Source of the DNA: a virus
Lineage: Duplodnaviria > Caudoviricetes
Virus record (IMG/VR): IMGVR_UViG_3300046171_000055
Span: 1-61,102 of that record
Reading direction: 5' to 3' (one strand)
Length of the DNA: 61,102 nt
Below are positions 8,482-48,352 of the stretch, in pieces (within the stretch, counting starts at the first letter, position 1; each line of letters begins with the position of its first letter). Below the pieces are notes generated by a model. It did no database searches and was not told the DNA's origin. It saw only the letters and a list, made by a program, of their open reading frames with translations. The position numbers and the translations under genes were made by a program.

Positions 8482-10068
8482 TTAATTATTATTATCTTGA
8501 TAGGTTCTTGCCATTGTTATAATGGCATTGGTAGATAGAAGAGTAACTGCAACTGAAACTGCATTCTGTAAAGCAGTCTTAGTTACTTTCAATGGGTCAA
8601 TAATACCCATCTCATACATATCTCCATACTCATCGTTCTTAACATCATATCCACCTGAGAAGATATCACTCTCTCTAAACATACCATTATCATACTGCTC
8701 ACCTGCGTTTTCCCATATTTGTAATAGGGGTGCACGAAGTGCATCGTATAACATTTGTTGTGCTTTATTATCAGAGTCTTCATATTTAAATGATTGTCTA
8801 AATAAAGCAATACCTCCACCCGGAAGTATACCTTCTTCTAAAGCAGACCTGACTGCACATACTGCATCATCCACTCTATCATATAGTTCTTTTTGTTCTA
8901 AGTCAGTATTACCTCCAACATATATAACACCTACACCACCTGTTAATGTAGCAATCCTACTTAGTATAAATTCTTTATCGTCTTTTCTTTTAGTAGCTTT
9001 CAAAGCTTCTTTAAGTTCAGACACTCTTGTTTTAATAAGACTTTCATTATCTACATCGTCTTTGATGACGACAGTTGAGTCACGACCAACTATCACCTTG
9101 GCACAGTGACCCAAATCATTTACTGTCATCAATGATAAATCGTCACCGGTTTTTTCGCTAAAGTATGTAGCACCAACACTTGCTGCAATGTCTTGCATTA
9201 GTTCGTGTTGTTTATATCCAAAGGATGGAGGACCAATTGTACAAAGCTTCAAGTTGCTTTTCATTACATTGGCTGCTAAAGTATTTACAACATTAGATGA
9301 AGTAGGTGCAATAATTAAAAGTCTTTTACTTTCTGATATCACAGGCTTCAATATATTTTCAATACTTAAAATGTTTTCAATAGGTGCATCACTAACTAAT
9401 ACAAAACAATCTTCAAGAATACATTCATCTTTCTTTTGGTTGTTTACAAATAGTGGTGATTCATAACCTCTATCAATCTTAAGACCATTAGTGGTTTCAT
9501 AATACGTCTCAGATGTTTGAGATTTATCTACTGCAACGATTCCATCCTTTCCCACATTCCTATATACCTTTGCGATTATATCGCCTAGGTAAGAATCATT
9601 GTTAGCAGAAATAGTTGCTACATCTTTTAAAGTTTTATTATTAACTTTCTTTGACTTGGCTCTTAGGTTCTTTACAACCTTATTAGTTTCATTAACTAGG
9701 TCCCTTAATACTTGTGTCTTATTCTTGTCTAAATCTTTACCTGCGTTGACTAACGCTTCTGTGATTACAATTGCAGTTGTAGTTCCGTCTCCTGCTTGAG
9801 TAGCAGTTCTATCGGATGCTTCCTTCATAATCTTTACTGCAAGATTTTCTGTAGGGTCAAGTAATGCTACTGACTTAGCTACAGTAACTCCGTCTTTAGT
9901 TACAGTGATTCCGTTAGTGTGTTGTGGTGATTCTATTAGAACAGTTTGACCGGATGGTCCTAGTGTAGACTTAACTGCTTTAGATATTTTTTCAATCCCT
10001 TTGTAAAGTTTGTCTCTACCTTCTTCTTCAAATAAAAGATTCTTCGGACTGTATCCTAATTCTGACAT
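8482..10068 (-). CDS. groEL: Chaperonin GroEL
   Basis: STLGPSG, TKDGVTVAK, AGDGTTTA, DRVDDAVCA, GILPGGG, GIIDPLKV motifs; TATCTTTG promoter box at 10091-10098. Confidence 0.97.
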   Translation of the reverse strand: MSELGYSPKNLLFEEEGRDKLYKGIEKISKAVKSTLGPSGQTVLIESPQHTNGITVTKDGVTVAKSVALLDPTENLAVKIMKEASDRTATQAGDGTTTAIVITEALVNAGKDLDKNKTQVLRDLVNETNKVVKNLRAKSKKVNNKTLKDVATISANNDSYLGDIIAKVYRNVGKDGIVAVDKSQTSETYYETTNGLKIDRGYESPLFVNNQKKDECILEDCFVLVSDAPIENILSIENILKPVISESKRLLIIAPTSSNVVNTLAANVMKSNLKLCTIGPPSFGYKQHELMQDIAASVGATYFSEKTGDDLSLMTVNDLGHCAKVIVGRDSTVVIKDDVDNESLIKTRVSELKEALKATKRKDDKEFILSRIATLTGGVGVIYVGGNTDLEQKELYDRVDDAVCAVRSALEEGILPGGGIALFRQSFKYEDSDNKAQQMLYDALRAPLLQIWENAGEQYDNGMFRESDIFSGGYDVKNDEYGDMYEMGIIDPLKVTKTALQNAVSVAVTLLSTNAIITMARTYQDNNN

Positions 10069-10658: not shown

Positions 10659-10732
10659 GCACCTATAGCTTAATTGGATAAAGCAACTGCCTTCTAAGCA
10701 GTAGAGTCTAGGTTCGAGTCCTAGTAGGTGTA
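10659..10732 (+). tRNA. tRNA-Arg (anticodon TCT)
   Basis: Cloverleaf: acceptor GCACCTA/TAGGTGT, D arm GCTT/AAGC, anticodon arm ACTGC-CTTCTAA-GCAGT, T arm CTAGG-TTCGAGT-CCTAG; CCA not encoded. Confidence 0.95.
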
Positions 10733-10765
10733 CAAAAAAAAAGAGGAACATATAGTTCCCCTTCC
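10733..10765 (-). terminator. Intrinsic terminator
   Basis: Minus strand GGGGAAC-TATAT-GTTCCTC followed by a T run, downstream of 10790..10984. Confidence 0.65.
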
Positions 10766-10789
10766 TCCAATCAATCAAATCAAAATCAA

Positions 10790-10984
10790 CTACATTCTGT
10801 AGAAGTTCTTTCGACCTTCTGCAAGGTCAATGCCATCAGCATACATATCTACTTTCTTTGCTCTTCTCATAGCTTTGCGTAGCATAGCTGCTTGTTCTAT
10901 TCCGGATACTCCGTTTGGTCTGTCATTGATAAGTCTTCCCTTCTCAACTCTAAGACCTCCCATACTTTGATATTTCATTTTCAT
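10790..10984 (-). CDS. Hypothetical protein (probable start MKMKYQ at 10984)
   Basis: ORF track 10790..11074; TATCTTTG box at 11002-11009 favours the shorter start. Confidence 0.6.
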   Translation of the reverse strand: MKMKYQSMGGLRVEKGRLINDRPNGVSGIEQAAMLRKAMRRAKKVDMYADGIDLAEGRKNFYRM

Positions 10985-11039
10985 ATCTAATCTGTTTTGT
11001 ACAAAGATACAAAAATATTTTAGATGTATATAGTCTTTA

Positions 11040-11106
11040 GGTTCCCCCCCGGTCCACGCTGACGGAGCCTCCACCGAAACCGATTTTTTTTCGAGGGGTG
11101 GGGTGC
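11040..11106. other. GC-rich island at the divergence of the two arms; candidate physical genome terminus
   Basis: C7 run (11044-11050) and GGGGTGGGG (11095-11103) in an AT-rich genome, within the largest non-coding gap. Confidence 0.4.
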
Positions 11107-11279
11107 AAGTTCCAAATCTGCAATCAGACTTTTTTAGCTTTTTCTAGCAGTACTTGTTGTCTACCTGTTGACACTGCAACAGGTAGTCACTGCATCCTCT
11201 GTAGACTCTACGATTATCCTAGTAAAGTCTACGATATAAAGAGCATTACCTCTCTGTTACTCTCTTATACAAGCAAAGA

Positions 11280-11295
11280 GTGTCTTTGAAGACAC
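11280..11295. repeat. 16-bp palindrome copy 2 (TG centre)
   Basis: Exact match, intergenic, upstream of the first early gene. Confidence 0.95.
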
Positions 11296-11543
11296 AAAGA
11301 GACTTTGCTCAACCTCTGTGCGAAAGTTTAGGACCATAAACAATAGTCAGTAATTAAACGAGAAAAAGAAAATTGCTTGAGGTAGTGAAAGAAAGATTAA
11401 ACATTTAGACAAAATATAGTCGAGAATTAGAAAGAATATTGTATATTGCAATCGATAAGGGAAGTTAAAAACAAGAGAAAACGACCCTAATGTGCTGAAA
11501 GTCAGCATTTTAACTTAAATTAAATAACTAAACAGACAAAATT

Positions 11544-12188
11544 ATGAGTCAATTATTAGAAATCGAAAGTGCATTCCTTAGTTCATCAGAGGTAAAAGAT
11601 GCATTAAAGCTAAACGAAGTGAAACGAGTTCAGCGAAGTATTAACAATGCCCACAAGACAAAATTTAACCATACGATGAAGTTGGCAAACCTCATCAACG
11701 ATGCAGTTAAATGGTTCGATAGTGAAGAAGGCAAAGAGAAATTAAGAGAGGAAGGTATCGAATGGTCAAAAGAGGAATTTGGAAAAAAGACATTTGGCTA
11801 TCAGAAGTCTTTCTTTTACAAACTAATTAAGTCTGCTAACCTAGACCCAAGAATACTTGAAGCATTCAACACTAAATGCGATGAGATAGGAACAGATGCT
11901 AACAGAAGTATAGCCGGTCTTCTAGAGTTCTCTAGAACAATAGATTTAGATTCTCTAGAGCATTCAGAAGATGCTACAGAAGAAGAAATTGCTCAAGCAG
12001 AGCAAGAGGTTATCGAGTCTACTGAAGTAGAGCAAGAGAGAACAAATTATTTATTTGTTATGACCTACAAAAATCCTCAAGGCAACAATCTATCTGTTAG
12101 AGTTGATGATGCTGGAAACGTATCTGGAAACAATTTAGAAGAAATAGCAAACGCAATTCAATTCTTACAAAATTCAATCAATAATTAA
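11544..12188 (+). CDS. First early protein, putative HTH DNA-binding protein
   Basis: WSKEEFGKKTFGYQKSFFYKLIK resembles ParB/DUF3102-type HTH segments; acidic linker; function inferred. Confidence 0.5.
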   Translation: MSQLLEIESAFLSSSEVKDALKLNEVKRVQRSINNAHKTKFNHTMKLANLINDAVKWFDSEEGKEKLREEGIEWSKEEFGKKTFGYQKSFFYKLIKSANLDPRILEAFNTKCDEIGTDANRSIAGLLEFSRTIDLDSLEHSEDATEEEIAQAEQEVIESTEVEQERTNYLFVMTYKNPQGNNLSVRVDDAGNVSGNNLEEIANAIQFLQNSINN

Positions 12189-12191
12189 TCA

Positions 12192-12207
12192 GTGTCTTCA
12201 AAGACAC
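12192..12207. repeat. 16-bp palindrome copy 3 (CA centre)
   Basis: Exact match 3 nt after the stop of 11544..12188. Confidence 0.95.
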
Positions 12208-12224
12208 ACAAAACCACAGAAAAA

Positions 12225-13178
12225 ATGAGTACAGAAATTCAATACGATAATTCAAATGATGCCGGTAGAAACCGAGTTCAGTCTTATCACAGAAGTCCTA
12301 GTCCGAGAGACCTCTCTAAAGGTGCAAAGTCTTCCGATATTAAAAATCTGAAGTCTGCATCCAAGAGAAACCTAATCGAGTTAGGCGATGGCAATACCGA
12401 GTCTAAATTTACTATCGGTATGGAAGTAGAAAAGCAACGACTCTCTAGAGGTGCAGTTAAAGAATATCCTTTGTTTGCCGGATTCGAGAGAGATTCCTCT
12501 TGTGGCTATGAAGCCATTACTAATATCATTCCTTTGTTACCTAGTGGACAATGGAGAAACAAAGTTTTCAATATGATGTTCCAAGCTAGGAAAATTATAG
12601 AAGACCAATACTCTCCTAGTTCTACTAGATGTGGTGGTCACATTACACTAGCAGTTCAAGGAATGACCGGTGCTGAAGTTATGAAAGCTATCAGAAAAAA
12701 TTGTGGGATTGTTTACTCTCTATTTTACAAGAGGTTGAACAATGGTTACTGCAATGGTAATATGACAATGTTAGATAAGAGTACTTTAGCATCTGATGAG
12801 GTTATGAGATACCAAAGAAGATACGATGTGTGTCTTGACAAGGGTAACACTATCGAGTTTAGGTTAGTTAGTAGATTCCAATCTGTAAAGCAGATGATGA
12901 GAAGATACGAATTGTTCTATGAGTTACTTGATTTCTCAATTAACAATCCTAATGGAAGTCACAATACATTCCTTAAGAAAATTACTCCAATCGTTAAGTC
13001 TATGTACAATGGAGATATGGACAAAGTGAATGAGAAGTTAACCTTAGCTAAATCATTTAGAACAATGATTCTTAAGAATAAAGTTAACCGAGATGTGATA
13101 AACTATGTTGACCCAATGCGAAGACTAGATGCAAGTAAATGGTACGACAGAGACCTTAATCGAAATGGTTACAATTAA
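12225..13178 (+). CDS. Putative amidoligase (Amidoligase_2 / COOH-NH2 ligase family)
   Basis: FTIGMEVE, ERDSS..YEAIT, CGGHITL, TIEFR motifs; ATG at 12225 preferred over the GTG inside the palindrome. Confidence 0.8.
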   Translation: MSTEIQYDNSNDAGRNRVQSYHRSPSPRDLSKGAKSSDIKNLKSASKRNLIELGDGNTESKFTIGMEVEKQRLSRGAVKEYPLFAGFERDSSCGYEAITNIIPLLPSGQWRNKVFNMMFQARKIIEDQYSPSSTRCGGHITLAVQGMTGAEVMKAIRKNCGIVYSLFYKRLNNGYCNGNMTMLDKSTLASDEVMRYQRRYDVCLDKGNTIEFRLVSRFQSVKQMMRRYELFYELLDFSINNPNGSHNTFLKKITPIVKSMYNGDMDKVNEKLTLAKSFRTMILKNKVNRDVINYVDPMRRLDASKWYDRDLNRNGYN

Positions 13179-13191
13179 AAATCAAAGGGTA

Positions 13192-13207
13192 GTGTCTTCA
13201 AAGACAC
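13192..13207. repeat. 16-bp palindrome copy 4 (CA centre), within an extended hairpin GGGTAGTGTCTT/AAGACACTATCC
   Basis: Exact match just after the amidoligase stop and immediately 5' of the hammerhead. Confidence 0.95.
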
Positions 13208-13212
13208 TATCC

Positions 13213-13263
13213 TCTGTCTATCGGTGTGTGCCGGTACTGATGAGTTCAAAAGAACGAAACAGA
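13213..13263 (+). ncRNA. Type III hammerhead ribozyme
   Basis: Stem III UCUGU/ACAGA; GUC cleavage triplet (cut after 13218); stem I UAUCGGU-GUGU-GCCGGUA; CUGAUGA core 13237-13243; stem II GUUC-AAAA-GAAC; GAAA 13256-13259. Confidence 0.92.
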
Positions 13264-13287
13264 AACATTAATTTAAATTCAATCAAG

Positions 13288-13524
13288 ATGAAAAATCAAA
13301 TCAGAAATTATGCAGAAACAATTCTGTATGTATCAGTAACACTAGGAGTCTTCTCAATGGTAGGTAGACTATTAATCCACATTATTTTTAACGATGCTAG
13401 AATGCTCATTCAGACATTCAGTGGAGCAGTATCAATGCTTGTAGTATTTGCATTCTTATTATTCTTAATGTATGCAACATTCACACTTATAGTAGCTGAC
13501 ATAAAAGAGAGACACAATGCATAG
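13288..13524 (+). CDS. Small membrane protein (2 TM)
   Basis: Start reassigned to MKNQIRNY at 13288, downstream of the ribozyme; two hydrophobic helices. Confidence 0.65.
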   Translation: MKNQIRNYAETILYVSVTLGVFSMVGRLLIHIIFNDARMLIQTFSGAVSMLVVFAFLLFLMYATFTLIVADIKERHNA

Positions 13525-13684
13525 AGAAAGAAAACACTACTACAAAGTTAGATATGCAGGTAAGCTAATTAAAGTCTTATCTGCTCATTCTAAATGGGAA
13601 GCAATCGACAGAATTTACAATGATAATATTGGTAGGTACAAGTGGATTGTCAGAGAAAAATTTACAGCAGTTAAATCTAAATAA
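13517..13684 (+). CDS. Small hypothetical protein (55 aa)
   Basis: Hand-translated MHRERKHYYKVRYAGKLIKVLSAHSKWEAIDRIYNDNIGRYKWIVREKFTAVKSK; fills the gap. Confidence 0.6.
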   Translation: MHRERKHYYKVRYAGKLIKVLSAHSKWEAIDRIYNDNIGRYKWIVREKFTAVKSK

Positions 13685-13694
13685 AATTAAAATT

Positions 13695-14048
13695 ATGTAT
13701 AAAGTAACATTACAATTCAATACTCATAAGATTACTTATGGGTCGAACAGAGGGCAGTGGGTCATAACTAAAGAGTTCAACGACCTAAGACACTGCAACA
13801 ATTTCATAGACTATATATGCAGAACAAAAGCATACTCACTTGATGAGATATGGTACGAGTCCGGTTATCCTTTCAAAGAGGGTGACAAATATTTCACCTT
13901 AGAGAAGAATCAAATCATTAGTTCTTGGTGGGATGATGTGTCAGAAGAATTGTTTGATAAGAATACCATCTACTTTGTGACACAAAAAGATGCAGAGAAT
14001 TATAGAGATAGTATGAAAGATGTAACAATCATAAATCTAAGACAATGA
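13695..14048 (+). CDS. Hypothetical protein
   Basis: ORF track 13620..14048; start MYKVTLQF after an A/T-rich leader. Confidence 0.65.
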   Translation: MYKVTLQFNTHKITYGSNRGQWVITKEFNDLRHCNNFIDYICRTKAYSLDEIWYESGYPFKEGDKYFTLEKNQIISSWWDDVSEELFDKNTIYFVTQKDAENYRDSMKDVTIINLRQ

Positions 14049-14563
14049 AAAAATTAATATTTATATCAGCATTATCTGTGGTTGGATATGTGAGTAGTTC
14101 TGTGTCTTCAAAGACACAAACTGCTCAGACAGAGGTAAGTCAACAGACAGACTCTGTTCTAGTGGTACGGGAGGAAGTAGTTCCTCCCAAGCCATTGGCG
14201 ATAGACACATTGCTAGTTGCAATTATGTATGTAGAATCTAGACTAGACTCAACGGCATATGCAAAGAATGAAAATGCCGTAGGAGTTTTACAGATAAGAC
14301 CAATAATGGTTCGTGAAGTTAATAGAGTTCTAAAAAAGATGGGCAAGGAAGATAGATATACATTGAAAGACAGATGGAGTTTAGTGAAGTCAGTCGAGAT
14401 GTTTAATGTCATACGAGACTATCACCATAAAGAATCAGACTATGAAACCATAGCAAGATGTTGGAATGGTGGAAGGAGAGGTGATAGAAAAAAATCTACA
14501 CTTGTGTATTGGGAACGAGTTCAAATACAAATAAATAATATCAATCAAATTTTAAATAAATAG
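14045..14563 (+). CDS. Secreted lysozyme-fold protein (transglycosylase/destabilase-like)
   Basis: Signal peptide; AIMYVES catalytic Glu, GVLQI, ARCWNGG motifs. Confidence 0.75.
   Translation: MKKLIFISALSVVGYVSSSVSSKTQTAQTEVSQQTDSVLVVREEVVPPKPLAIDTLLVAIMYVESRLDSTAYAKNENAVGVLQIRPIMVREVNRVLKKMGKEDRYTLKDRWSLVKSVEMFNVIRDYHHKESDYETIARCWNGGRRGDRKKSTLVYWERVQIQINNINQILNK
14102..14117. repeat. 16-bp palindrome copy 5 (CA centre)
   Basis: Exact match inside CDS, linker SVSSKTQ. Confidence 0.95.
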
Positions 14564-14565
14564 TT

Positions 14566-14865
14566 ATGACAAACAAAGAACAAATAATCAAAGAGTTAAG
14601 AAGAAGAATGCAGATAGCTAGAGACACTCAAGCTATAGGCAGAGAAAGATACCTAGCTACACTCATAGAGGGTGTGAAGAATGAATTCAAACCTGCGTAT
14701 GACGATGAGGGAAAAAAGTTTAGCACCTGCTTTGACAATATGGAATTAAGTGGAAGCTTTTCAATGCAGTTGAGTTGGTGGAATAATTTTGCAGACTATG
14801 TGCAAGAACATAGAAACACTTGCTACAACAATGCTTGTGAATACGCAGATGAAAAAGAAAGATAA
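14566..14865 (+). CDS. Hypothetical protein
   Basis: 99-aa ORF in operon. Confidence 0.65.
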   Translation: MTNKEQIIKELRRRMQIARDTQAIGRERYLATLIEGVKNEFKPAYDDEGKKFSTCFDNMELSGSFSMQLSWWNNFADYVQEHRNTCYNNACEYADEKER

Positions 14866-14872
14866 GATTAGA

Positions 14873-14904
14873 CTTGCGTATGTCTAAATTTAGTCTTATA
14901 TTTG
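14873..14904 (+). promoter_or_regulatory. Bacteroidota-type promoter (TTG...TATATTTG)
   Basis: TATATTTG at 14897-14904 with TTG about 20 nt upstream. Confidence 0.65.
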
Positions 14905-14930
14905 TCCAATCAATTATTAATCAGAGGTCT

Positions 14931-14946
14931 GTGTCTTCAAAGACAC
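14931..14946. repeat. 16-bp palindrome copy 6 (CA centre)
   Basis: Exact match in the 5' leader between promoter and ATG 14968; flanked by GAGG/CCTC. Confidence 0.95.
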
Positions 14947-14967
14947 TCCTCACAAATCAAATCAAAT

Positions 14968-16038
14968 ATGTGCGTAATTATTATTAAGCAGAAAAACAAT
15001 CAGATGTCAGAGGAAATAGCCAAGACCTCTGCAAGAATTAATCCTCACGGATTAGGAATTATTTGGCTAGATACTTTTGAAGTCGAGTATTATAAATCAA
15101 AAGACTATCGCAAGTTAATTACTAACCGACCTTTCATTGCTCACTTTAGATATGCAACTAAGGGTGCAGTCAACAAAGCAAACACTCATCCATTTGTATG
15201 TGGTAAAAACACAGATGAATTGCTTATGCACAATGGTACAATCAAAGGGTTAGGAGATGCTAAGATGTGCGACAGTAAAGTTCTAGCTAATAACTTAGGG
15301 TCAATGAATCGTATGCATTGGAAAAAACATTTAGAGCAGTATGACTCTCGATTTGTTTCAATCAATCTTCGTACTCGTTCATTTCAAATCTACAACAGAA
15401 ACCTATACACTTATCGAGATGGTATTTGGTATTCCAAAGCCAATGTATTACAAGACAATCTTATTGCAGTGTATGGTACACTAAAGAAAGGGTTTGGTAA
15501 CTACTACTCATACCTAACTAATGCAAAGCATTTAGGTAGAGGTAAGACTCAAGACAAATATCCTTTGTTGGTTGAGGGTTTACCATACTTGGTAGAAAAG
15601 AAAGATGTGGGTCACAATGTGGTGGTTGATGTGTTTAAGGTTAGTGATATGCAACTAAAGAATATTGACCAACTTGAAGGACATCCACGTTGGTACAAGC
15701 GAAAGCAAATACCAATTAAACTAAAGAATCGTACTCTAAATTGTTGGGTGTATTTCAATTCAAAAGACATCACAAACAAAGAGTATCACGAATCTTTTGA
15801 AAGAACCTACAGACAAGAACCACTCTTCACTTTTGAAGATGTTCAGCCAACTTATGATACCACTGAGTATCACGAGGCAATAGATATTGGTTGGTCTGAC
15901 ACAGACTTTCCAACTGAAACCACTCCAACTTGTGTCGATTGTTTCAGTGACTTGGAACACGATGCATTTCACAACTACTACTGCTCATCTTGTGGTGGTT
16001 GGTTCAAGGAAGATGAAGTATTAAAATTTAACGACTAA
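14968..16038 (+). CDS. Class II glutamine amidotransferase fused to gamma-glutamylcyclotransferase (AIG2-like) with C-terminal Zn ribbon
   Basis: N-terminal MCVII (Ntn Cys), NPHGLG, AHFRYATKG, NTHPF, MHNG; then AVYGTLKKG...LEGHPRWY; CVDC...CSSC. Confidence 0.88.
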   Translation: MCVIIIKQKNNQMSEEIAKTSARINPHGLGIIWLDTFEVEYYKSKDYRKLITNRPFIAHFRYATKGAVNKANTHPFVCGKNTDELLMHNGTIKGLGDAKMCDSKVLANNLGSMNRMHWKKHLEQYDSRFVSINLRTRSFQIYNRNLYTYRDGIWYSKANVLQDNLIAVYGTLKKGFGNYYSYLTNAKHLGRGKTQDKYPLLVEGLPYLVEKKDVGHNVVVDVFKVSDMQLKNIDQLEGHPRWYKRKQIPIKLKNRTLNCWVYFNSKDITNKEYHESFERTYRQEPLFTFEDVQPTYDTTEYHEAIDIGWSDTDFPTETTPTCVDCFSDLEHDAFHNYYCSSCGGWFKEDEVLKFND

Positions 16039-16055
16039 TTATAAATCAGAATCAA

Positions 16056-16298
16056 ATGAAAATAGAATTAAACAGAATCAAAAGAATAGCAGAAGACATA
16101 AAGTCAGATGATGAATGGGTAAACGATAGCCATACATCAGCAGAGCATAAAGGAATTAAAGAAGGACTTGATATGTTAATCAGACATCTTGAACAGACAA
16201 ACCATCCAAGAGAGAAATGGTTCCACAAGGCAGACAAGAAGTTAATTGGTGGGTATTGGTATGTCAAAATAGCAGATATAAAATTAGGTAATGTCTAA
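16056..16298 (+). CDS. Hypothetical protein
   Basis: 80-aa ORF with AATCAA leader. Confidence 0.65.
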   Translation: MKIELNRIKRIAEDIKSDDEWVNDSHTSAEHKGIKEGLDMLIRHLEQTNHPREKWFHKADKKLIGGYWYVKIADIKLGNV

Positions 16299-16336
16299 AT
16301 ATTTTACTACTTTAGTACAAATAAAAATCAAATCAA

Positions 16337-16579
16337 ATGGCAAGACTAATTAAAGCAAGTGGGGAGGTGCTACCAAACGTAGACATCTCCTCCCTAAAAA
16401 AAATGCAGGACTTAGTGCAGGGGTATATAGAGTTTATATATCTAAAAGACAATAGAGTCTTAATCTGTAACGAAGAAGGACTGCTTATGAATTTCCCACC
16501 AAATAAACAAGCAAGTAATATCTATGGTCATCGAGTCGTGGGCGATGTGGTAGTATGTGATATTACTGAAATCAAATAA
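16337..16579 (+). CDS. DUF3846-like protein
   Basis: LKKMQDLVQGYIE...ICNEEGLL..PPN..AS....VVGDVV. Confidence 0.75.
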   Translation: MARLIKASGEVLPNVDISSLKKMQDLVQGYIEFIYLKDNRVLICNEEGLLMNFPPNKQASNIYGHRVVGDVVVCDITEIK

Positions 16580-16585
16580 CACCTT

Positions 16586-16960
16586 ATGAAAAATATGATT
16601 CACCTACAACGTGAGCATCTCATCAGTCTAAAGCTAGACGGGGGAAGCAAAGAGGACATTCAAAAAGTACAACAAGCTATGGACAATGGCTCGTATGGAC
16701 ACAAAGAATTTAGATTAACTAGAAAGAAAATGAAACCAACAGAGTTTTTAAATATGTGGGGTAATCCACCGAACATTGAAGATAGTTGCGTTGAAGTTTA
16801 TTTATATCTAGGACTAAACTTTATTCAGAAATTACAACCCAATAAAGAAAAGAAAGAATATAAATATTATTGGGACAACCAAGAGAAGTCTAAAACTGCA
16901 AAGAAACTAGACACCGTAGAGAAAGGTATGTGCGAAGTTATCTTTGATAAATCTTATTAA
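16586..16960 (+). CDS. Hypothetical protein
   Basis: 124-aa ORF in operon. Confidence 0.6.
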   Translation: MKNMIHLQREHLISLKLDGGSKEDIQKVQQAMDNGSYGHKEFRLTRKKMKPTEFLNMWGNPPNIEDSCVEVYLYLGLNFIQKLQPNKEKKEYKYYWDNQEKSKTAKKLDTVEKGMCEVIFDKSY

Positions 16961-17204
16961 TATTATGACAATCAATTTTAAATCATTTCAGGAGTCAGGT
17001 CAGATTCAAAATGTAAAAGGAATAGATGAAGCAGATAAGCTTCATAGGTTAACAACCGATGTTATTATCTACGTCAACAATCATTACATTGAGATGCTGA
17101 AAGATGGTAATTTTTTATACCGACCATCAGGTATAGGTCAAGGCAAGAGGTCTAAGGTTCTTGCTAATGTTGAGAAATACATATACAATTTAATTTATGG
17201 CTAA
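16944..17204 (+). CDS. Hypothetical protein
   Basis: 86-aa ORF; start may be slightly downstream. Confidence 0.6.
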   Translation: MINLINIMTINFKSFQESGQIQNVKGIDEADKLHRLTTDVIIYVNNHYIEMLKDGNFLYRPSGIGQGKRSKVLANVEKYIYNLIYG

Positions 17205-17490
17205 GACAGAAGAGTTAATCAAAGAGGTAGGCAGAGAGGTAGTTATGCTATTGCTTGAAAAGAATAAAGCATATGGCGACACTGCAAACAAGCCACCGAA
17301 AATCTTCAGTAAACTTTCAGCGAAGGAAGGAATACTTGCAAGGATAGATGACAAGTTAAGCAGGATAAAAACTGTGGGTATCAATGACAAAACAGAAGAC
17401 ACCCTGCTTGACTTGATTGGCTATCTAATTCTGTACAGAGTACAGTGTAGGAAAGAAGAAGTGTCTTCAAAGACACAAGAAAAAAGTTAG
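17197..17490 (+). CDS. DUF1599 / nucleotide-modification-associated all-alpha domain protein
   Basis: EKNKAYGD...ARIDDKLSRI...EDTLLDLIGY. Confidence 0.75.
   Translation: MAKTEELIKEVGREVVMLLLEKNKAYGDTANKPPKIFSKLSAKEGILARIDDKLSRIKTVGINDKTEDTLLDLIGYLILYRVQCRKEEVSSKTQEKS
17461..17476. repeat. 16-bp palindrome copy 7 (CA centre)
   Basis: Exact match in the C-terminal tail of 17197..17490 (VSSKT). Confidence 0.95.
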
Positions 17491-17553
17491 ACGAAATTTG
17501 GAAAATTAATAAAAGTTTACTAAATTTACAGACAAATCAAAATCAAATCAATT

Positions 17554-17757
17554 ATGTCAAAAATGAAGCAAGTCTTCCAAGAAGAAAGGGAAGCAAACGT
17601 AGACCAAGATGGACTCTTGGATGCAGAATGGGAACAAATAAAAACCGTTCACGAAAGCCAAAGGCAAATGTTAAATCAAATCTTTGAAGCTTGGGGAGAA
17701 ATCTTTGGGGTCAAGGATGTTAAATCTAAATCAAATAATGAAGACGAAAATTTTTAA
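17554..17757 (+). CDS. Hypothetical protein
   Basis: 67-aa ORF after an AATCAA-repeat leader. Confidence 0.6.
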   Translation: MSKMKQVFQEEREANVDQDGLLDAEWEQIKTVHESQRQMLNQIFEAWGEIFGVKDVKSKSNNEDENF

Positions 17758-26742: not shown

Positions 26743-29700
26743 TTACTTCTTTAATTCTTCTCTAAGTTCTCTTTTCATTTTTCTTATCTCATAATCAGGA
26801 GTACCCGGTCCATACATTTCTTTGTATAGGTCAGGGTCTATATCTCTTAACAACGACTTAGACATTCCCTTGTCTTTACTTGAACTTTTCTTTTCCTTAA
26901 TACCATATCCCGGTCTGTATGATGTACTTACACCTGTAAGGTCATACATATTTTCTTCACTAAAGTCTCCACCTAAAGCTTTAAACAATGCTAAAGGAGC
27001 ATCGAGTTGCATACCTAAAGATATTTCAAATATTGGTTGTACATAATTAAGCACGGTACCACCCTCTTCTACTTTCTTATGCATCTTATCCATCTTTCTA
27101 ATAACAGAACTAAGAGGATTAACTCCATCGCTTACAGGCTTTCTGCTACCCTCAATTTTAGAAACCAATTGTTCCATAGCAGAACCAACTAAAGGTATAC
27201 CATATATTAAGTTAAGACCTAAAGCAGCATCTCTTAATGCCTTCATTGCTCTGTCTTTCTCCTCATCATTTTTTCCGTGTAACAAAGCAGGTGCATAAGA
27301 TGCTAGTGTAAACATTACGTTTGCTGCAGAATAGTTTAGAACAAACTTTCTTAAATCAGAAGCTTTTATTTCACTTGGTTTGCCTTTAGCTATACTACTA
27401 AAAACGGCTCTACTTGATTGGCTTACGTTGTTCATCATTAGGTATAATGAACTACCGAACATAGTAAAGAACCTATTATAAAAACTTGTCTTTTGTTGGA
27501 TAGGAGATTTCTCTGTACTTCTTCTTGTCTGTTGAGTTGCATTGTATTCATTGAATAATCTTAAAGCTTCAGCATCAGTCATACCATTTTTCTTGGCTCT
27601 ATTATATAGTGCCTTATATCCTAGTACACCAAGTATATCACCTGCTACTGTAGTAAAACCTGCTGCTCTCTGAACACCCCTAGTAAATCTACCTCTTTTT
27701 GTTTGCTTTGCTCTTGCTTTCTTGAATGTTCTACCACCTGATTCAAGACCAAATATATCTCCCTCTAAACCTTTTTTGATACGAGCATCAAATGTAGCTG
27801 ACATTTCTCTAGCCTCTCTAATTTGTTTTGGTAGAGTCATTATCACTTCAGCATAGTCTCTAATAAATGTAAGCAAGTCTGCTCCCGGCATCTTGTATCC
27901 TGAATCATACTTTTCAAAAGCCTGTACAAAAGATGAAGCCTGTTTAGGAATTTGAATTAGTTTGAAAGCTAATGCAAAACCTGTAAATCTAGTTTGTAGT
28001 TTTGTAAGTAGGTTATTTGAAACTTCAGGACCTGACTCAGGATTTATAGCATAGTTTAAATTTTGTTTGAAGAGTGACGATAAACCTGATTGTTCTAATA
28101 GAGTAGCAATCTGTTCGTCTTTTAATATTTCATTCATCTCTTTAACTCCAAGAGCATAAGACTTGTACTTCTCCATTGACTTAACGTGGTCTTCCATAAC
28201 CTCACTAAACGATAAGCCAATCTCAACATCACCTGTCAAATCAGTTCTTTCTTTTAAAGCAGGTGAATATTCTGCAGTAAATATTTTATCAAACTGTCCT
28301 TGTCCAATCATCTCTGATGTTATATCACCCTTCGATAAAGTTCTAGTAGGAAAATAATTTTCTACATATCCTAGGTTTACATCATTAACTTGAGAATAAA
28401 CTTCATTAGTTTCTTCAAAGTATTTATTACTTAAGAAATCTACAACTTGGTCAACCAACTCTACATTCTCAGGACCGATAAAGTCTTTGACTGCATCCAT
28501 ATTAATCCCTTGGTCTTCAAGCTTTTTTCTTTGCACATCATTTTTACTTAGTGCGTACAACCTCATCGCTTGGTCTACATTGAGAGTTTCTGTATATACA
28601 TTTCCTGTCTTAGTGTCTATAGCCGTAAACTCTGCAGTGTCTTCGCCTAATGAGTATTTCCAATTCTCCCACGTTTTATTGTGAGTAGATTCAGTCATAG
28701 CATTCATTTTGTTTTCAGTACGTCTTACACCTTGTAGATTGTTTTCATCAAAATCATTTAATCTATTATAAAAGGTTTCACTAAACATACCCTCACTGTT
28801 TCTGTCTAACAGTCTAGTAACTGAACCAAGATGGCTTATGTTATTTTGTAAAAACTTAGCGATACCATTGTAAGATAGCTTTTGGTCTTCCATAAAATTG
28901 TTAAGGAAAGTTTTAACTCCTTTCCAAAGACCTTCACTAAACGCTTTTCTAATTCTTTGGCTTCTATTTCTTAGTGCATTTTTGCCTAAAGGTTTACCAT
29001 TCTCATCATAAAGTTCTGAGTAATCATTTGATATTTGTTCTTGGAACTTTTGTTTTTGTTCTTCAATTTTTTGTCTTCTTAATTCTCTCCTGTTATTTAG
29101 TCTAGCAATGGACTCACCTCGTGTAGTTTTTACATCTTCAAATAATTCCTCCACTTGTTCTAGTTCCATACTAAGAACATCAGCGAATGAATCCAACGCA
29201 AGTCTTCTGTCAATTAACTGTTGTTCTTTAGTTGTAAGATTTATATTATTCGCAACCTTTGTTTCTATTGCAGACATAACATTAGGAGTTACAGTAGATT
29301 CAAGTTCACTTAAAGCTTCTGTATTATTTTCTTTTACTGCTTTTAAAACTCTGTTTACTTCAGCAAAATAAGCCTGACCTGCAGCATCTAAACCTGAAGA
29401 CCTTCTCTTACCTGATGTAGTCTTTTTTGTTTTAGATTTCTTTTTAACCAAATTAATTATCTTATCTATCAATTGATTCTTGATAACACCCCTTTGCTTT
29501 TCAACTTCAGTTAAAACCTCTGATATTTTACCATCAAAGTTTTTAGGATTAGTTTCGTTAACGACTTTTAAAAGTTTGTTTACTGAACGGTTATTATAAT
29601 TTTTAGACTTAGGTAAAAGTTTTCTTATAATCATTCTCATTCTACGTTGAGCATCAGTAATATTATCTTCACTGATTCTTCTCTGACGTAAGTTGTTTCT

Positions 29701-32700
29701 GATGTCAGCTATTTCTCTTCTTACATTTGGATTGGCTCTAATACCAAGTACTCTATCAAACGCATTCTCTAGTTCAAGTTGAGTTTGTTCAGGTTGTACT
29801 TTATATATAGGGTTTTCTCTAAGCAAGTCTAATGCTTTCTGTCTTATCTCGGCAAATGATTTAGTCCTTACACCTGTTTTACCTTTACCACCTCTAGGTC
29901 CTTGAATAGCAAAAGCATTTACTGCATCTCTAGTTTCAGTAAATAATCTTTGACCTACAATGGCACCACCTTCAACATTACCAAACTCTCTTGGCATAGG
30001 TTTTAATAAATCAAGTTGAACTGTTAGTGCATTAGTTATATCCTTTGGTTTGAATCCTCTGTTTTTTAGTACCACTCTAATAGATTCATCACTAAATCCT
30101 TCTCTTCTTCCTTGTTCTACAATACTATCAATAGACAAGCCTGTGCTAAAAGCAGCATCAGGGTTCTTTAGCATCTTCATTTGCTTGTCGGTCATCTTAA
30201 TTTCTTGACCTGCAAAAATATCAGCAAGTGCTACACCTAAGAATTTGTCAAGTGACAAGTCTTGAATTTCCTCTGCACTAAGGTCGGCTGACCTAGTTGA
30301 AAAGTTGTTCTTGATATAATTCCACATACCAAGAAGCCACTCTTGAAACTTAGCTTTCAATGATGCGTTAGCTATGGTCTCACCTTTGTTACCAATAAGT
30401 ATAGCCATTGCTTCGTTAGTAGCTTTCTCTACATCCCCGTCAAATCTTTTTAGTTGTTCTTTAAAGGTGTCAGTTTCCTGCACTAATTCTGCACCTTTTT
30501 CATATACCTTTCTACCTTGTTCAGTAGTTTTTAAGTAGTCGGTCCAAACGTGACCCATCTCGTGAATTGCAGTATTGAACAACTGTGATTCAGAGTTATG
30601 AACCTCAGGGTTAATATAAATATCCCCGTCTACAGTAACACCATAAACAACCTCATCACCTTTTAGATATACTCTTACATTATCTGATGCTAGTATATTA
30701 TTAAATGTGTCTGTATCAGAATTAATTACTACACCCGGAAATGCAATATTCATAAATGAGTTTAGTTTATCTACATTGCTTGGACTTTCATTAGATATAA
30801 TACCTACATAATCAAATGAAGGTATACCAATACCAAAACCTAATTGTTGTGCTCTTAATGTGTTTATTTGACTCGGTTTGCTTTCCGGTGTAATTGTTTC
30901 TTCTTTCTCAATAAGCTTGGCAAATACTTTTTGATAAGCTTTTGGATATACCGTTTCCATTCTTTGTGGATTTTCAAGTATACCAATTGACCTTCCTCTC
31001 ACACCATACTTATAATTAGGGTGTGTTGTTTCTACTATACCGGGATTCAATACATCTACACCAACAACAGAAACAACATTACCACCGGGTACATCCCTTA
31101 GTTGTGGGTCAGTAACTACATCTGTAATCATACTAATGTTTATTAGATTGGTATTAGGTAGTCCTTTTAATAGTGTAGTTGGAACTGCCTTAGTTGTAGG
31201 TGTAACTTTTTGATTAGTTCTTTTAGACTTTTGTAAAGGCTTGTTAGCTTTACTTGTTGTCATCAGCTTTACTAAATGACTACGCACAGGAAGTGGTAGT
31301 TTTTGAATTACATCATTAGCTAATAGTTGGTCTACGCTAGTTGGATTTAATTCTTCTATTGTTTCTAATAATTGTTTGTACTCACCCAAGTCTTTTGGTG
31401 GTTTTGCTTTAGTTTCTAGGAAATCAATATTTTTTTGAATAGCTTCTTTTAATACAGGTACTGCAGCCTTTCTATTCTTTAATGGAATCTTCTGCATATT
31501 ATCTAACAAGACTCGTATTACTGCTTCATTAGAAACCATAGCTTGTTCTCCCATCTTCACAATGTTCATAGGAACAAGACCATTCATCTCAGGATTCTTT
31601 GCCCAAAACTCATCAAATAAATTTTTATTATTTTGATATACTTGGTCTGCTTTATTTACAATAGACTGTGCTTCTTTCTCCGTGACGTTTGCCCAAGCTG
31701 CTTGTTCATTACCAACAGTTCCATTAAAACCAATGGCACCTTTTAGGTTATCTATAGTTGTATTGGTTTGTGGATTAACAACTGTACCTGTAGTAAGTTG
31801 GTCTGTAATACTAAATATAGTAGGAAGACCTTTTATTACTTCAAGCTTAGTAACTTTTAAATTATTATCTGTTCTTGTGTTAAGTTCTTCAACATCAATC
31901 TTAGATGTTCCTTCTTGGCTTTCTACAGTGGTATCTACGTTTGGAGATTCTATTTCATTAATCTCTGTAGTAATTTCAATCTCATCAGGACCAATATTAT
32001 CTGTGTTGTTTTCGTTGGTTGTTTCTAATTTAAAATCTACTTTAGGTTTTGTTCCTGATTCTTTTTCTTGAAGAGATTGTTCTAGGTCAGTTACTTCCTG
32101 TACTGCTGCATCATTATTGGTAACTGCTTCTTCAGTTTCGAGTGTCTTCAAAGACACTCCATCTTCTGCAGTTTGTTCTTGTATTTGAGTAGGAGTTTCT
32201 ACTGAAGGTGTTGTAGTTTCTGTTGTAGGTGTAGTGGTTTCAGTAACCTCACCTTGTTCTACTGTTACATTTCCATCAGATGCTGCTTGTGCAACTGCTT
32301 GTGCAGGTGCAACTTTAGCTTCAACTAATTTGTTTGCTACCATTTGAGAAACCTCATCATCATTTTCAATGGATGCATTTAGTCTACCTATATTTTTCGG
32401 GTCTAAACCATTTATATATTTTACAAACTCATCTTTGCTTACCTCTGTAAACTGACCAAGCTTTCCTCTAAATCCTTTTCTTATTTTGTAGGTAGGTTTT
32501 CCTGCTCTCAAATCTGTTCCTGTAGCTTGTTCTTGAACAGATAGCACACCTGTACCTGCTAACAGTGTTTGTTGCTCAGGTGTTCTTAATTCTTTTGTGG
32601 TCAGTATTTCTGACAACTCTGTATTTATTTCTTTAATCTTTGGTCCAAAAACTTCTTTTCTATTTTGTGAAGATGACAATTCGTTTTTAGCAGAAAGGAG

Positions 32701-48315: not shown

Positions 48316-48352
48316 AAAAAAAAGGAGGAGTGTCTTCAAAGACACTCCCCCA
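48316..48352 (-). terminator. Intrinsic terminator after the capsid gene, with the palindrome as its stem
   Basis: Minus strand GGGGGAGTGTCTTTGAAGACACTCCTCC followed by T8. Confidence 0.8.
48330..48345. repeat. 16-bp palindrome copy 12
   Basis: Exact match 18 nt past the MCP stop. Confidence 0.95.

What the first reader, a model, noticed from the sequence alone, without database searches (positions are those of the whole stretch)
13213..13263. Complete type III hammerhead ribozyme inside the early operon
Seen: every hammerhead element is present in order on the sense strand. These are UCUGUC (GUC cleavage site, cut after 13218), stem I UAUCGGU/GCCGGUA with a GUGU loop, CUGAUGA, stem II GUUC/GAAC with an AAAA loop, GAAA, and ACAGA closing stem III. 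It fills the gap between the amidoligase gene and the membrane-protein gene that starts at 13288; the ORF track hides it by extending that ORF to 13129. Established: hammerheads do occur in some phage intergenic regions, but their role there is poorly understood. Inference: it cuts the first early transcript into two separately stabilised mRNAs, the downstream one with a 5'-OH end.
Basis: partly seen in the sequence, partly recalled or inferred. Interest (0 to 1): 0.85.

Follow-up and report, generated by a model that had tools for sequence, protein, structure and literature searches.

The report
Hammerhead ribozyme between phage early genes
A genuine, evolutionarily conserved self-cutting hammerhead RNA lies between two genes of this marine phage and probably cuts the long message there; this is a good but fairly ordinary example of something known in phages since 2011.

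Summary
Window 13213-13263 (+) contains every element of a type III hammerhead, with the cut predicted after C13218. Rfam's Hammerhead_3 model matches end to end: 38.6 bits, E 8e-05 for the whole window. That is below Rfam's curated cut-off of 48.5.

The same element follows the same upstream gene in 24 of 31 genomes (window plus 30 IMG/VR relatives). All three stems covary: 95.9% of cells are paired against about 40% in slid controls, and 11 of 16 pairs show compensatory changes. All 35 copies are intergenic and on the sense strand. They lie 20-53 nt after a stop codon and 15-43 nt before an ATG. A stable hairpin ends just before stem III.

At this junction 4 relatives carry a tRNA-like minihelix, 1 a type I hammerhead-like element and 2 an uncatalogued hairpin motif. 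This fits the junction being an RNA-cutting site.

Cleavage itself is untested. One RNA-library contig bridges the site, which is inconclusive.

Phage hammerheads flanking genes were described in 2011 (PMC3088659). This scan has reported the same layout, and the mini-tRNA swap, on other phage DNA. Verdict: new member of a known kind.

The parts
12225..13178 (+). The listed ORF starts at GTG 12192 inside a palindrome copy; ATG 12225 is the likelier start.
   Evidence: Homologues in 30 IMG/VR loci. No Pfam or PHROGs family.
13187..13212 (+). Hairpin of 11 pairs with a 4-nt loop. It contains one copy of the 16-nt palindrome (13192-13207) and ends one base before stem III. It is the predicted 3' cap of the upstream cleavage product.
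   Evidence: Folds. A stable hairpin (<= -10 kcal/mol within the 50 nt upstream) precedes 137 of 166 related hammerhead copies, with many different sequences.
13213..13218 (+). Stem III 5' strand UCUGU plus the cleavage-site nucleotide C17 (13218). The predicted cut is between 13218 and 13219.
13219..13236 (+). Stem I (7 pairs) closed by loop GUGU.
   Evidence: Six of its 7 pairs show compensatory changes in relatives. Loop positions U, G and U are conserved.
13237..13243 (+). Catalytic core strand CUGAUGA (C3-A9).
   Evidence: It is invariant in 23 of 23 sequences except position 7, which is the known variable position.
13244..13255 (+). Stem II (4 pairs, G10.1-C11.1 first) closed by loop AAAA.
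13256..13263 (+). Core GAA (G12-A14), then ACAGA, the 3' strand of stem III (A15.1 at 13259).
13264..13287 (+). A/U-rich leader without an obvious Shine-Dalgarno sequence, between the ribozyme and the start codon.
   Evidence: Similar leaders follow related copies; the distance to the ATG is 15-43 nt in 35 of 35.
13288..13524 (+). Downstream gene: a 78-aa hydrophobic small protein. Its true start is ATG 13288, not 13129.

Best explanation
This is an active-type, canonical type III hammerhead ribozyme. It is transcribed as part of the plus-strand replication/early gene arm of a complete 61-kb marine phage genome.

When RNA polymerase passes the junction, the RNA folds into an upstream hairpin followed directly by the three-stem hammerhead, and it cuts itself after C13218. 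The upstream message then ends in a 2',3'-cyclic phosphate five bases after an 11-pair hairpin, which would give a 3' end protected from exonucleases. The downstream message starts with a 5'-OH and keeps the folded ribozyme, followed by a 24-nt A/U-rich leader and the start codon of a small membrane protein. The junction is thus a host-independent RNA processing site that uncouples the two messages.

Shown here: sequence, fold, conservation, covariation, position, and the presence of other processing-type RNA elements in the same slot in relatives. Inferred: that cleavage happens in vivo, the chemistry of the ends (from the established hammerhead mechanism), and the effect on stability or translation.
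For: 1. All core nucleotides and all three helices are present. RF00008 matches full length, with E 8e-05 for the whole window.

2. Conservation. The covariance model R1 finds 35 strong copies (E <= 5.6e-09) in the window and in 26 of 30 related loci. In 23 distinct sequences the core is invariant except N7. In the same set 95.9% of pair cells are standard pairs against 37.7-43.7% when partners are slid, 11 of 16 pairs have changes on both sides, and 0 of 500 shuffles reach the covariation score. In 120 distinct sequences from a wider scan 95.5% are paired and 14 of 16 pairs are compensatory. That alignment is fitted to the model and its loci were picked by a pattern.

3. Position. All 35 of 35 copies are on the coding strand between ORFs, 20-53 nt after a stop and 15-43 nt before an ATG.

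4. Hairpin. The hammerhead-constrained fold keeps the hairpin and costs only 1.8 kcal/mol over the MFE (-29.2 against -31.0). In 137 of 166 related copies there is a stable hairpin just upstream, against 33 of 166 in shuffles.

5. Same slot, other devices. After the homologous upstream gene, 24 of 31 genomes have this hammerhead and 4 of 31 have a tRNA-like acceptor/T-arm minihelix (11 of 12 pairs compensatory). One of 31 has a type I hammerhead-like element (RAGATH-1 hammerhead model, weak, E 0.034). Two of 31 have a conserved long hairpin motif. On a tree of the upstream protein the tRNA-like state needs 3 changes, at least 2 of them forced by well-supported branches.

6. Literature. Perreault et al. 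2011 (PMC3088659, passages read) showed in vitro and in E. coli cleavage of clustered prophage hammerheads and proposed processing of long phage transcripts.
Against: No cleavage product or RNA end was observed. The four RNA-library runs that hold the region are low-depth assembled contigs. One of them (X17, 151 nt, 13157-13307) bridges the predicted cut, so it is either uncleaved RNA or DNA carry-over.

The Rfam score is below the curated cut-off (38.6 against 48.5). Stems II and III are short (4 and 5 pairs). The loop-loop contact needed for fast cleavage at cellular Mg2+ is only inferred from conserved loop bases.

The window has a single copy, so 'punctuation' of the whole operon does not apply to this genome. 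Other junctions here carry the hairpin alone.

The type I element and the tRNA-like elements at the same slot would leave different structures on the downstream RNA. That weakens the idea that the retained ribozyme fold itself is the stabiliser.
Confidence: 0.7

Rival explanations
1. The ribozyme is active, but its job is to give the downstream gene a defined, context-free 5' leader. In this reading it acts as an insulator of translation (as engineered ribozyme insulators do; recalled, not looked up), not as a stabiliser of either product.
For: The distance from ribozyme to ATG is short and constant, 15-43 nt in 35 of 35 copies, and the leaders are similar and A/U-rich. The ribozyme stays attached to the downstream product in the type III topology.
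Against: At the same junction, relatives use a type I-like hammerhead, which stays with the upstream product, or a tRNA-like element. The conserved feature is therefore the cut and not a particular 5' structure. Junctions in the window with the hairpin alone have the same kind of leader.
Confidence: 0.15
2. The upstream hairpin is the main signal. It would be a terminator or a protein-binding site, since the 16-nt palindrome occurs 13 times in the genome. The hammerhead would then only clean up read-through transcripts, or be a passenger.
For: There are 13 exact palindrome copies, in genes and between them (expected 0.87). Some related copies have a hairpin plus a T-run directly before the hammerhead, for example L040 and L051. 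The copy at 48330 reads as a terminator on the minus strand.
Against: At 13187-13212 no T-run follows the hairpin. Upstream hairpins of related hammerheads have many unrelated sequences; only 45 of 166 carry the palindrome-type motif. A passenger would not keep an invariant core and compensatory stem changes across 120 distinct copies.
Confidence: 0.1
3. Chance resemblance or a dead relic with no activity.
For: The score is below Rfam's gathering cut-off. One RNA-library contig spans the site.
Against: E 8e-05 for the whole window. Positional conservation in 24 of 31 genomes. Strong covariation.
Confidence: 0.03
4. The cut ends are used for ligation. RNA between two ribozymes would be circularised or spliced by an RtcB-type ligase.
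For: Relatives have 2-5 same-strand copies 0.3-2 kb apart. Perreault et al. raised this possibility.
Against: This genome has only one copy. No RNA ligase or kinase family was found among the 18 proteins scanned with Pfam. Perreault et al. did not detect such products.
Confidence: 0.02

Closest known systems
Clustered hammerhead ribozymes flanking genes in phages and prophages (Perreault et al. 2011, PLoS Comput Biol, PMC3088659; passages read)
   Same: Canonical hammerhead in a phage intergenic region on the sense strand. Relatives carry several copies that flank single genes or short blocks. The same proposal applies: processing of long transcripts into gene-length mRNAs.
   Different: Here there is one copy per genome. 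It is always preceded by a hairpin that abuts stem III, and it sits at a junction where relatives carry a tRNA-like minihelix or other elements instead. I could not see that paper's supplementary alignments, so I cannot say whether these marine sequences were already in them.
HHphage of haloviruses HF1/HF2 (described in PMC3088659)
   Same: A hammerhead a few nucleotides upstream (13 nt there, 24 nt here) of the start codon of a gene in the early region. There a mapped 5' end lies within 3 nt of the cut.
   Different: HHphage is a core variant that needs high salt or Mg2+ and heads the first gene of the transcript. This one has a canonical core and sits between two genes.
Rfam RF00008 Hammerhead_3 (clan CL00010)
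   Same: Full-length alignment to the model and the same topology (stems I and II closed, III open).
   Different: It scores 38.6 bits. Nine relatives score 30.2-44.7, all below the gathering score of 48.5, so Rfam-based annotation misses this subfamily.
RNase III processing sites between the early genes of phage T7 (recalled from textbook knowledge, not looked up here)
   Same: An early polycistronic phage message is cut between genes, leaving hairpin-capped 3' ends.
   Different: T7 relies on a host enzyme and a long double-stranded hairpin. Here the RNA would cut itself.
t-elements / tRNA punctuation in plant mitochondria (Forner et al. 2007, PMC1920247; only the search listing and the start of the abstract were seen)
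   Same: Relatives of this phage have tRNA-like structures at mRNA junctions in the slot that the hammerhead fills here.
   Different: Those are organellar and are cut by RNase P/Z. The window itself has no such element.

Membership tests
Hammerhead ribozyme class, type III topology | Conserved core: CUGANGA, GAAA, and a cleavage triplet NUH with A15.1-U16.1 | tested here: met
   The core is invariant in 23 of 23 relatives except N7. H17 is C here, and C, A or U in relatives, never G (the pattern that fetched many of those rows required H).
Hammerhead ribozyme class, type III topology | Three helices around the core, stems I and II closed by loops, stem III open to the flanks | tested here: met
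Hammerhead ribozyme class, type III topology | Helices supported by compensatory changes in relatives | tested here: met
   11 of 16 pairs, 95.9% paired against about 40% slid; 14 of 16 pairs.
Hammerhead ribozyme class, type III topology | Tertiary contact between loop I and loop II for activity at cellular Mg2+ | tested here: inconclusive
   Loop bases are conserved in an alignment not selected on loops: U, G and U in loop I, AAA in loop II. No structural or kinetic test was possible.
Hammerhead ribozyme class, type III topology | Site-specific self-cleavage giving 2',3'-cyclic phosphate and 5'-OH | not testable with these tools
   Only low-depth RNA contigs were available; one spans the site.
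Rfam RF00008 (database family, curated threshold) | Score at or above the gathering cut-off of 48.5 bits. This is a database inclusion rule, not a biochemical feature. | tested here: not met
   38.6 bits, E 8e-05 for the window.
Gene-flanking phage/prophage hammerhead arrays (Perreault 2011) | Intergenic, sense strand, in phage DNA | tested here: met
   (35 of 35). The window is a complete virus record.
Gene-flanking phage/prophage hammerhead arrays (Perreault 2011) | Several ribozymes close together, flanking single genes | tested here: not met
   One copy in this genome. Relatives have 3 per genome and up to 5 within 2.5 kb (L087).

The most novel reading that the evidence does not exclude
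The junction after this gene is a slot for interchangeable RNA cutters. In this phage lineage the same hairpin-led slot is filled by a type III hammerhead (this window), a type I hammerhead, a tRNA-like minihelix (presumably cut by host RNase P/Z), or an uncatalogued ~60-nt hairpin motif with a conserved 3' arm. The swaps happened more than once. If true, phage hammerheads are one of several equivalent 'punctuation marks' for operon mRNA. The uncatalogued motif could then be a new self-cleaving RNA or nuclease site.
Probability: 0.5. Interest if true: 0.6.

Novelty: new member of a known kind. Interest (0 to 1): 0.4.

Why it matters
The biological role of bacterial and phage hammerheads is still described as unproven (review PMC6765202, passages read). 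This lineage offers a clean natural experiment: one junction, the same flanking genes, and four different RNA elements in related genomes. Swapping them in a reporter would test directly whether 'a cut here' is the selected function.

It also shows that a large marine and environmental subfamily falls below Rfam's threshold and is therefore missed by standard annotation. The subfamily gave at least 119 IMG/VR stretches, with the scan stopped at its limit. For this genome, the finding corrects the start of the downstream gene from 13129 to 13288.

Tried and rejected
A search of GenBank phages with 11500-15000 gave one weak hit under a hypothetical protein and nothing useful.

RNA evidence: 4 RNA-labelled runs were laid (X17-X20). 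All are assembled contigs at depth 2-9, with patchy cover and no starts or ends. X17 record 6 bridges the site. This neither shows nor excludes cleavage.

Promoter and terminator consensus scan of 10700-17700: 31 promoter-like sites against 25.6 expected, which is not informative.

Trans-acting or 'one ribozyme, many sites' idea, raised by earlier notes on other genomes: rejected here. Stem I is closed by a loop, so the enzyme strand cannot bind a separate substrate. The flanks of the other 12 palindrome copies also show no hammerhead half-site.

N4-like hairpin promoter idea for the palindrome: not pursued. The 2922-aa ORF has no PHROGs hit, and its only Pfam hit is weak and below cut-off (DUF6861, 19 bits against 28). 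Upstream hairpins of related hammerheads are not sequence-conserved.

ARAGORN at default settings calls none of the 8 tRNA-like elements a tRNA. Calls at relaxed settings swallowed the upstream hairpin and were ignored.

Rfam on the L009/L013-type motif (L156 4770-4885) found no plus-strand family.

Literature searches listed no paper that describes a hairpin-plus-hammerhead cassette or a hammerhead/mini-tRNA swap in phages. This rests on listings and the passages read. Supplements are closed.

Full report
**What is there**

- UCUGU (13213-13217) is the 5' strand of stem III, and C17 is at 13218.
- Stem I has seven pairs (13219-13225 with 13230-13236) and is closed by GUGU.
- CUGAUGA is at 13237-13243.
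- Stem II has four pairs (13244-13247 with 13252-13255) and is closed by AAAA.
- GAA is at 13256-13258, and ACAGA (13259-13263) closes stem III.

This is the type III topology.

Rfam's default scan of the window lists only a tRNA-Arg(TCT) at 10659-10732. With E-value reporting, RF00008 Hammerhead_3 aligns over its full length at 13211-13265. It scores 38.6 bits, with E 2.2e-07 on 171 nt and 8e-05 on the whole window. That is below the curated 48.5 bits.

A loose descriptor finds one site in the window. It found at least one site in 5 of 300 random resamples. No second copy exists in the window.

The window is a complete 61,102-bp virus record. At least half of the sampled words of the searched stretch (11000-16000) are held by 16 marine or seawater runs, one of which may be the source.

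**Conservation**

The upstream protein recovered 30 related IMG/VR loci at 38-84% identity. An alignment of 23 distinct hammerheads from these loci (A1) has an invariant core except position 7. It also has conserved loop bases: U, G and U in loop I, and AAA in loop II.

On the stated structure, 95.9% of cells are standard pairs, against 37.7-43.7% when the 3' partners are slid. Eleven of 16 pairs change on both sides, and no shuffle out of 500 reaches the covariation score.

A covariance model built from A1 (R1) finds 35 strong copies in the window and 26 of 30 loci. It finds none in L009, L013, L016 or L017. Searched over whole records, it finds 1 copy in three related genomes and 3 copies in two others.

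A pattern scan of IMG/VR returned at least 119 stretches and stopped at its limit. R1 found 128 copies in the 80 listed loci, with up to five within 2.5 kb in L087. In these, 95.5% of cells are paired and 14 of 16 pairs are compensatory. That set was selected by a pattern and aligned to the model, so it leans towards the structure.

**Position**

All 35 copies lie on the coding strand, 20-53 nt after the stop of an ORF and 15-43 nt before an ATG. In 28 of 35 the downstream frame is closed within or after the ribozyme. The window is one of the 7 where it happens to stay open, which explains the misleading ORF 13129..13524.

Homologues of the small hydrophobic protein align from Met 13288.

The plus-strand arm also carries an SLT-type transglycosylase and a GATase/GGCT fusion. 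It further carries a DnaA-type HTH protein, a Sak annealing protein, a PDDEXK nuclease, primase-helicase pieces and a helicase. An early or middle operon is therefore plausible, but timing is not shown. The name 'amidoligase' found no support in Pfam or PHROGs.

**The hairpin**

Directly 5' of stem III lies an 11-pair hairpin (13187-13212). The fold constrained to the hammerhead keeps it, and costs 1.8 kcal/mol more than the MFE.

Among 166 distinct related copies, 137 have a stable fold (<= -10 kcal/mol) in the 50 nt upstream. The mean is -16.0 against -7.5 kcal/mol for shuffles. The sequences are many and unrelated, and only 45 carry the palindrome-type motif. The hairpin is therefore conserved as RNA structure.

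After the cut, the upstream product would end five bases beyond this hairpin.

**Same slot, other devices**

After the stop of the homologous upstream gene, the 31 genomes divide as follows:
- 24 carry this hammerhead.
- 4 (L016, L017, L020, L025) carry a roughly 45-nt fold with an acceptor-like stem, a T-arm with the usual T-loop sequence, and a conserved GG. Eleven of its 12 pairs are compensatory. ARAGORN at default settings does not call it a tRNA. A model of it finds 12 copies in 64 sources and none in the window.
- 1 (L029) has a type I hammerhead by my reading, with weak support from the RAGATH-1 hammerhead model (E 0.034).
- 2 (L009, L013) share a long hairpin with a conserved 3' arm. 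Five further IMG/VR contigs have it after a stop codon and before an ATG, with a covarying inner stem. No Rfam family matches it.

On a tree of the upstream protein (29 rows; two truncated rows were dropped), the tRNA-like state needs 3 changes, at least 2 of them forced by well-supported branches.

I reached this result before consulting the scan's notes. Those notes report the same hammerhead/mini-tRNA swap in other phages.

**How it most likely works**

The message is cut co-transcriptionally at 13218/13219. This gives a hairpin-capped upstream mRNA, and a downstream mRNA with a 5'-OH, the folded ribozyme and a short A/U-rich leader.

Relatives use devices that leave different structures on the downstream RNA. 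The selected function is therefore more likely the cut itself (uncoupling of the two messages) than a specific 5' cap.

The chemistry of the ends follows from the established hammerhead mechanism. The effects on stability and translation are inference.

**What speaks against**

No cleavage was seen. The RNA-library data are sparse contigs, and one bridges the site. The score is under Rfam's cut-off. The stems are short. This genome has one copy only, and other junctions here have the hairpin alone.

**Comparison and novelty**

Perreault et al. 2011 (passages read) described hammerheads flanking genes in prophages. They showed cleavage in vitro and in E. coli, and proposed processing of long phage RNAs. 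They also noted a halovirus hammerhead 13 nt before a start codon with a mapped 5' end.

A 2019 review and a 2026 paper still call the roles unproven.

The element is thus a new member of a known kind. The junction-swap context is the more interesting part, and it lies mostly in relatives.

The scan has already reported similar cases on other DNA.

Noticed in passing
window 6990, 11280, 12192, 13192, 14102, 14931, 17461, 18886, 20192, 24228, 32142, 48330, 55464: There are 13 copies of a 16-nt palindrome, twelve exact and one with a single central change. Fewer than one is expected by chance. They lie in genes and between them, on both strands. One is the core of the hairpin before the hammerhead. 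Its sequence conservation suggests a DNA- or protein-level role in addition to RNA folding.
   Followed up: partly
L009 3951-4012, L013 3963-4030, L151, L153-L156: An uncatalogued ~60-nt RNA motif sits in the hammerhead's slot, after a stop codon and 20-30 nt before an ATG. It has an outer stem with a conserved 3' arm, a covarying inner stem and an A-rich loop. There is no Rfam match on that strand. It is a candidate nuclease site or a new self-cleaving RNA. The 3' arm was fixed by my search pattern.
   Followed up: partly
L016 3907-3957, L017 2931-2979 and 3915-3965, L019 2910-2962, L020 4004-4051, L022 2926-2974, L025 2923-2970 and 3925-3991, L075 4848-4895, L058 9923-9969: tRNA-like minihelices (acceptor stem plus T-arm, no anticodon arm) lie at gene junctions of related phages. 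Most directly follow the same palindromic hairpin.
   Followed up: yes
alignment A2 (120 distinct hammerheads from IMG/VR loci): There are two subclasses. C17 goes with a G10.1-C11.1 pair (42 rows). A17 goes with a U10.1/U11.1 mismatch (49 rows). Another 9 rows have A/A at that pair. A non-pair at 10.1-11.1 in about half of a large natural subfamily is unusual. It may be lineage history or a functional coupling.
   Followed up: partly
window 12192 and 14902: Two listed ORF starts (GTG 12192, TTG 14902) begin at or just before palindrome copies and are probably artefacts. The likely starts are ATG 12225 and ATG 14968. The latter gives Met-Cys, as expected for an N-terminal-nucleophile amidotransferase.
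   Followed up: partly
L021 and L026 5968-6022; L029 4081-4154 and 5971-6020; L020 about 4870: Type I hammerhead-like elements occur in the same relatives (RF00163 32.7 bits against a cut-off of 34 in L021). This phage group therefore uses more than one hammerhead topology.
   Followed up: partly
window 26743-35511 (-): A 2922-aa ORF has no PHROGs family and only a weak, below-cut-off Pfam hit (DUF6861, 19 bits against 28).
   Followed up: no
window 8482-10068 (-): A phage-encoded GroEL-type chaperonin (Pfam Cpn60_TCP1, E 4e-50).
   Followed up: no
L087 546-2598: Five hammerheads about 500 nt apart on one strand: a dense array with roughly one ribozyme per small gene.
   Followed up: no
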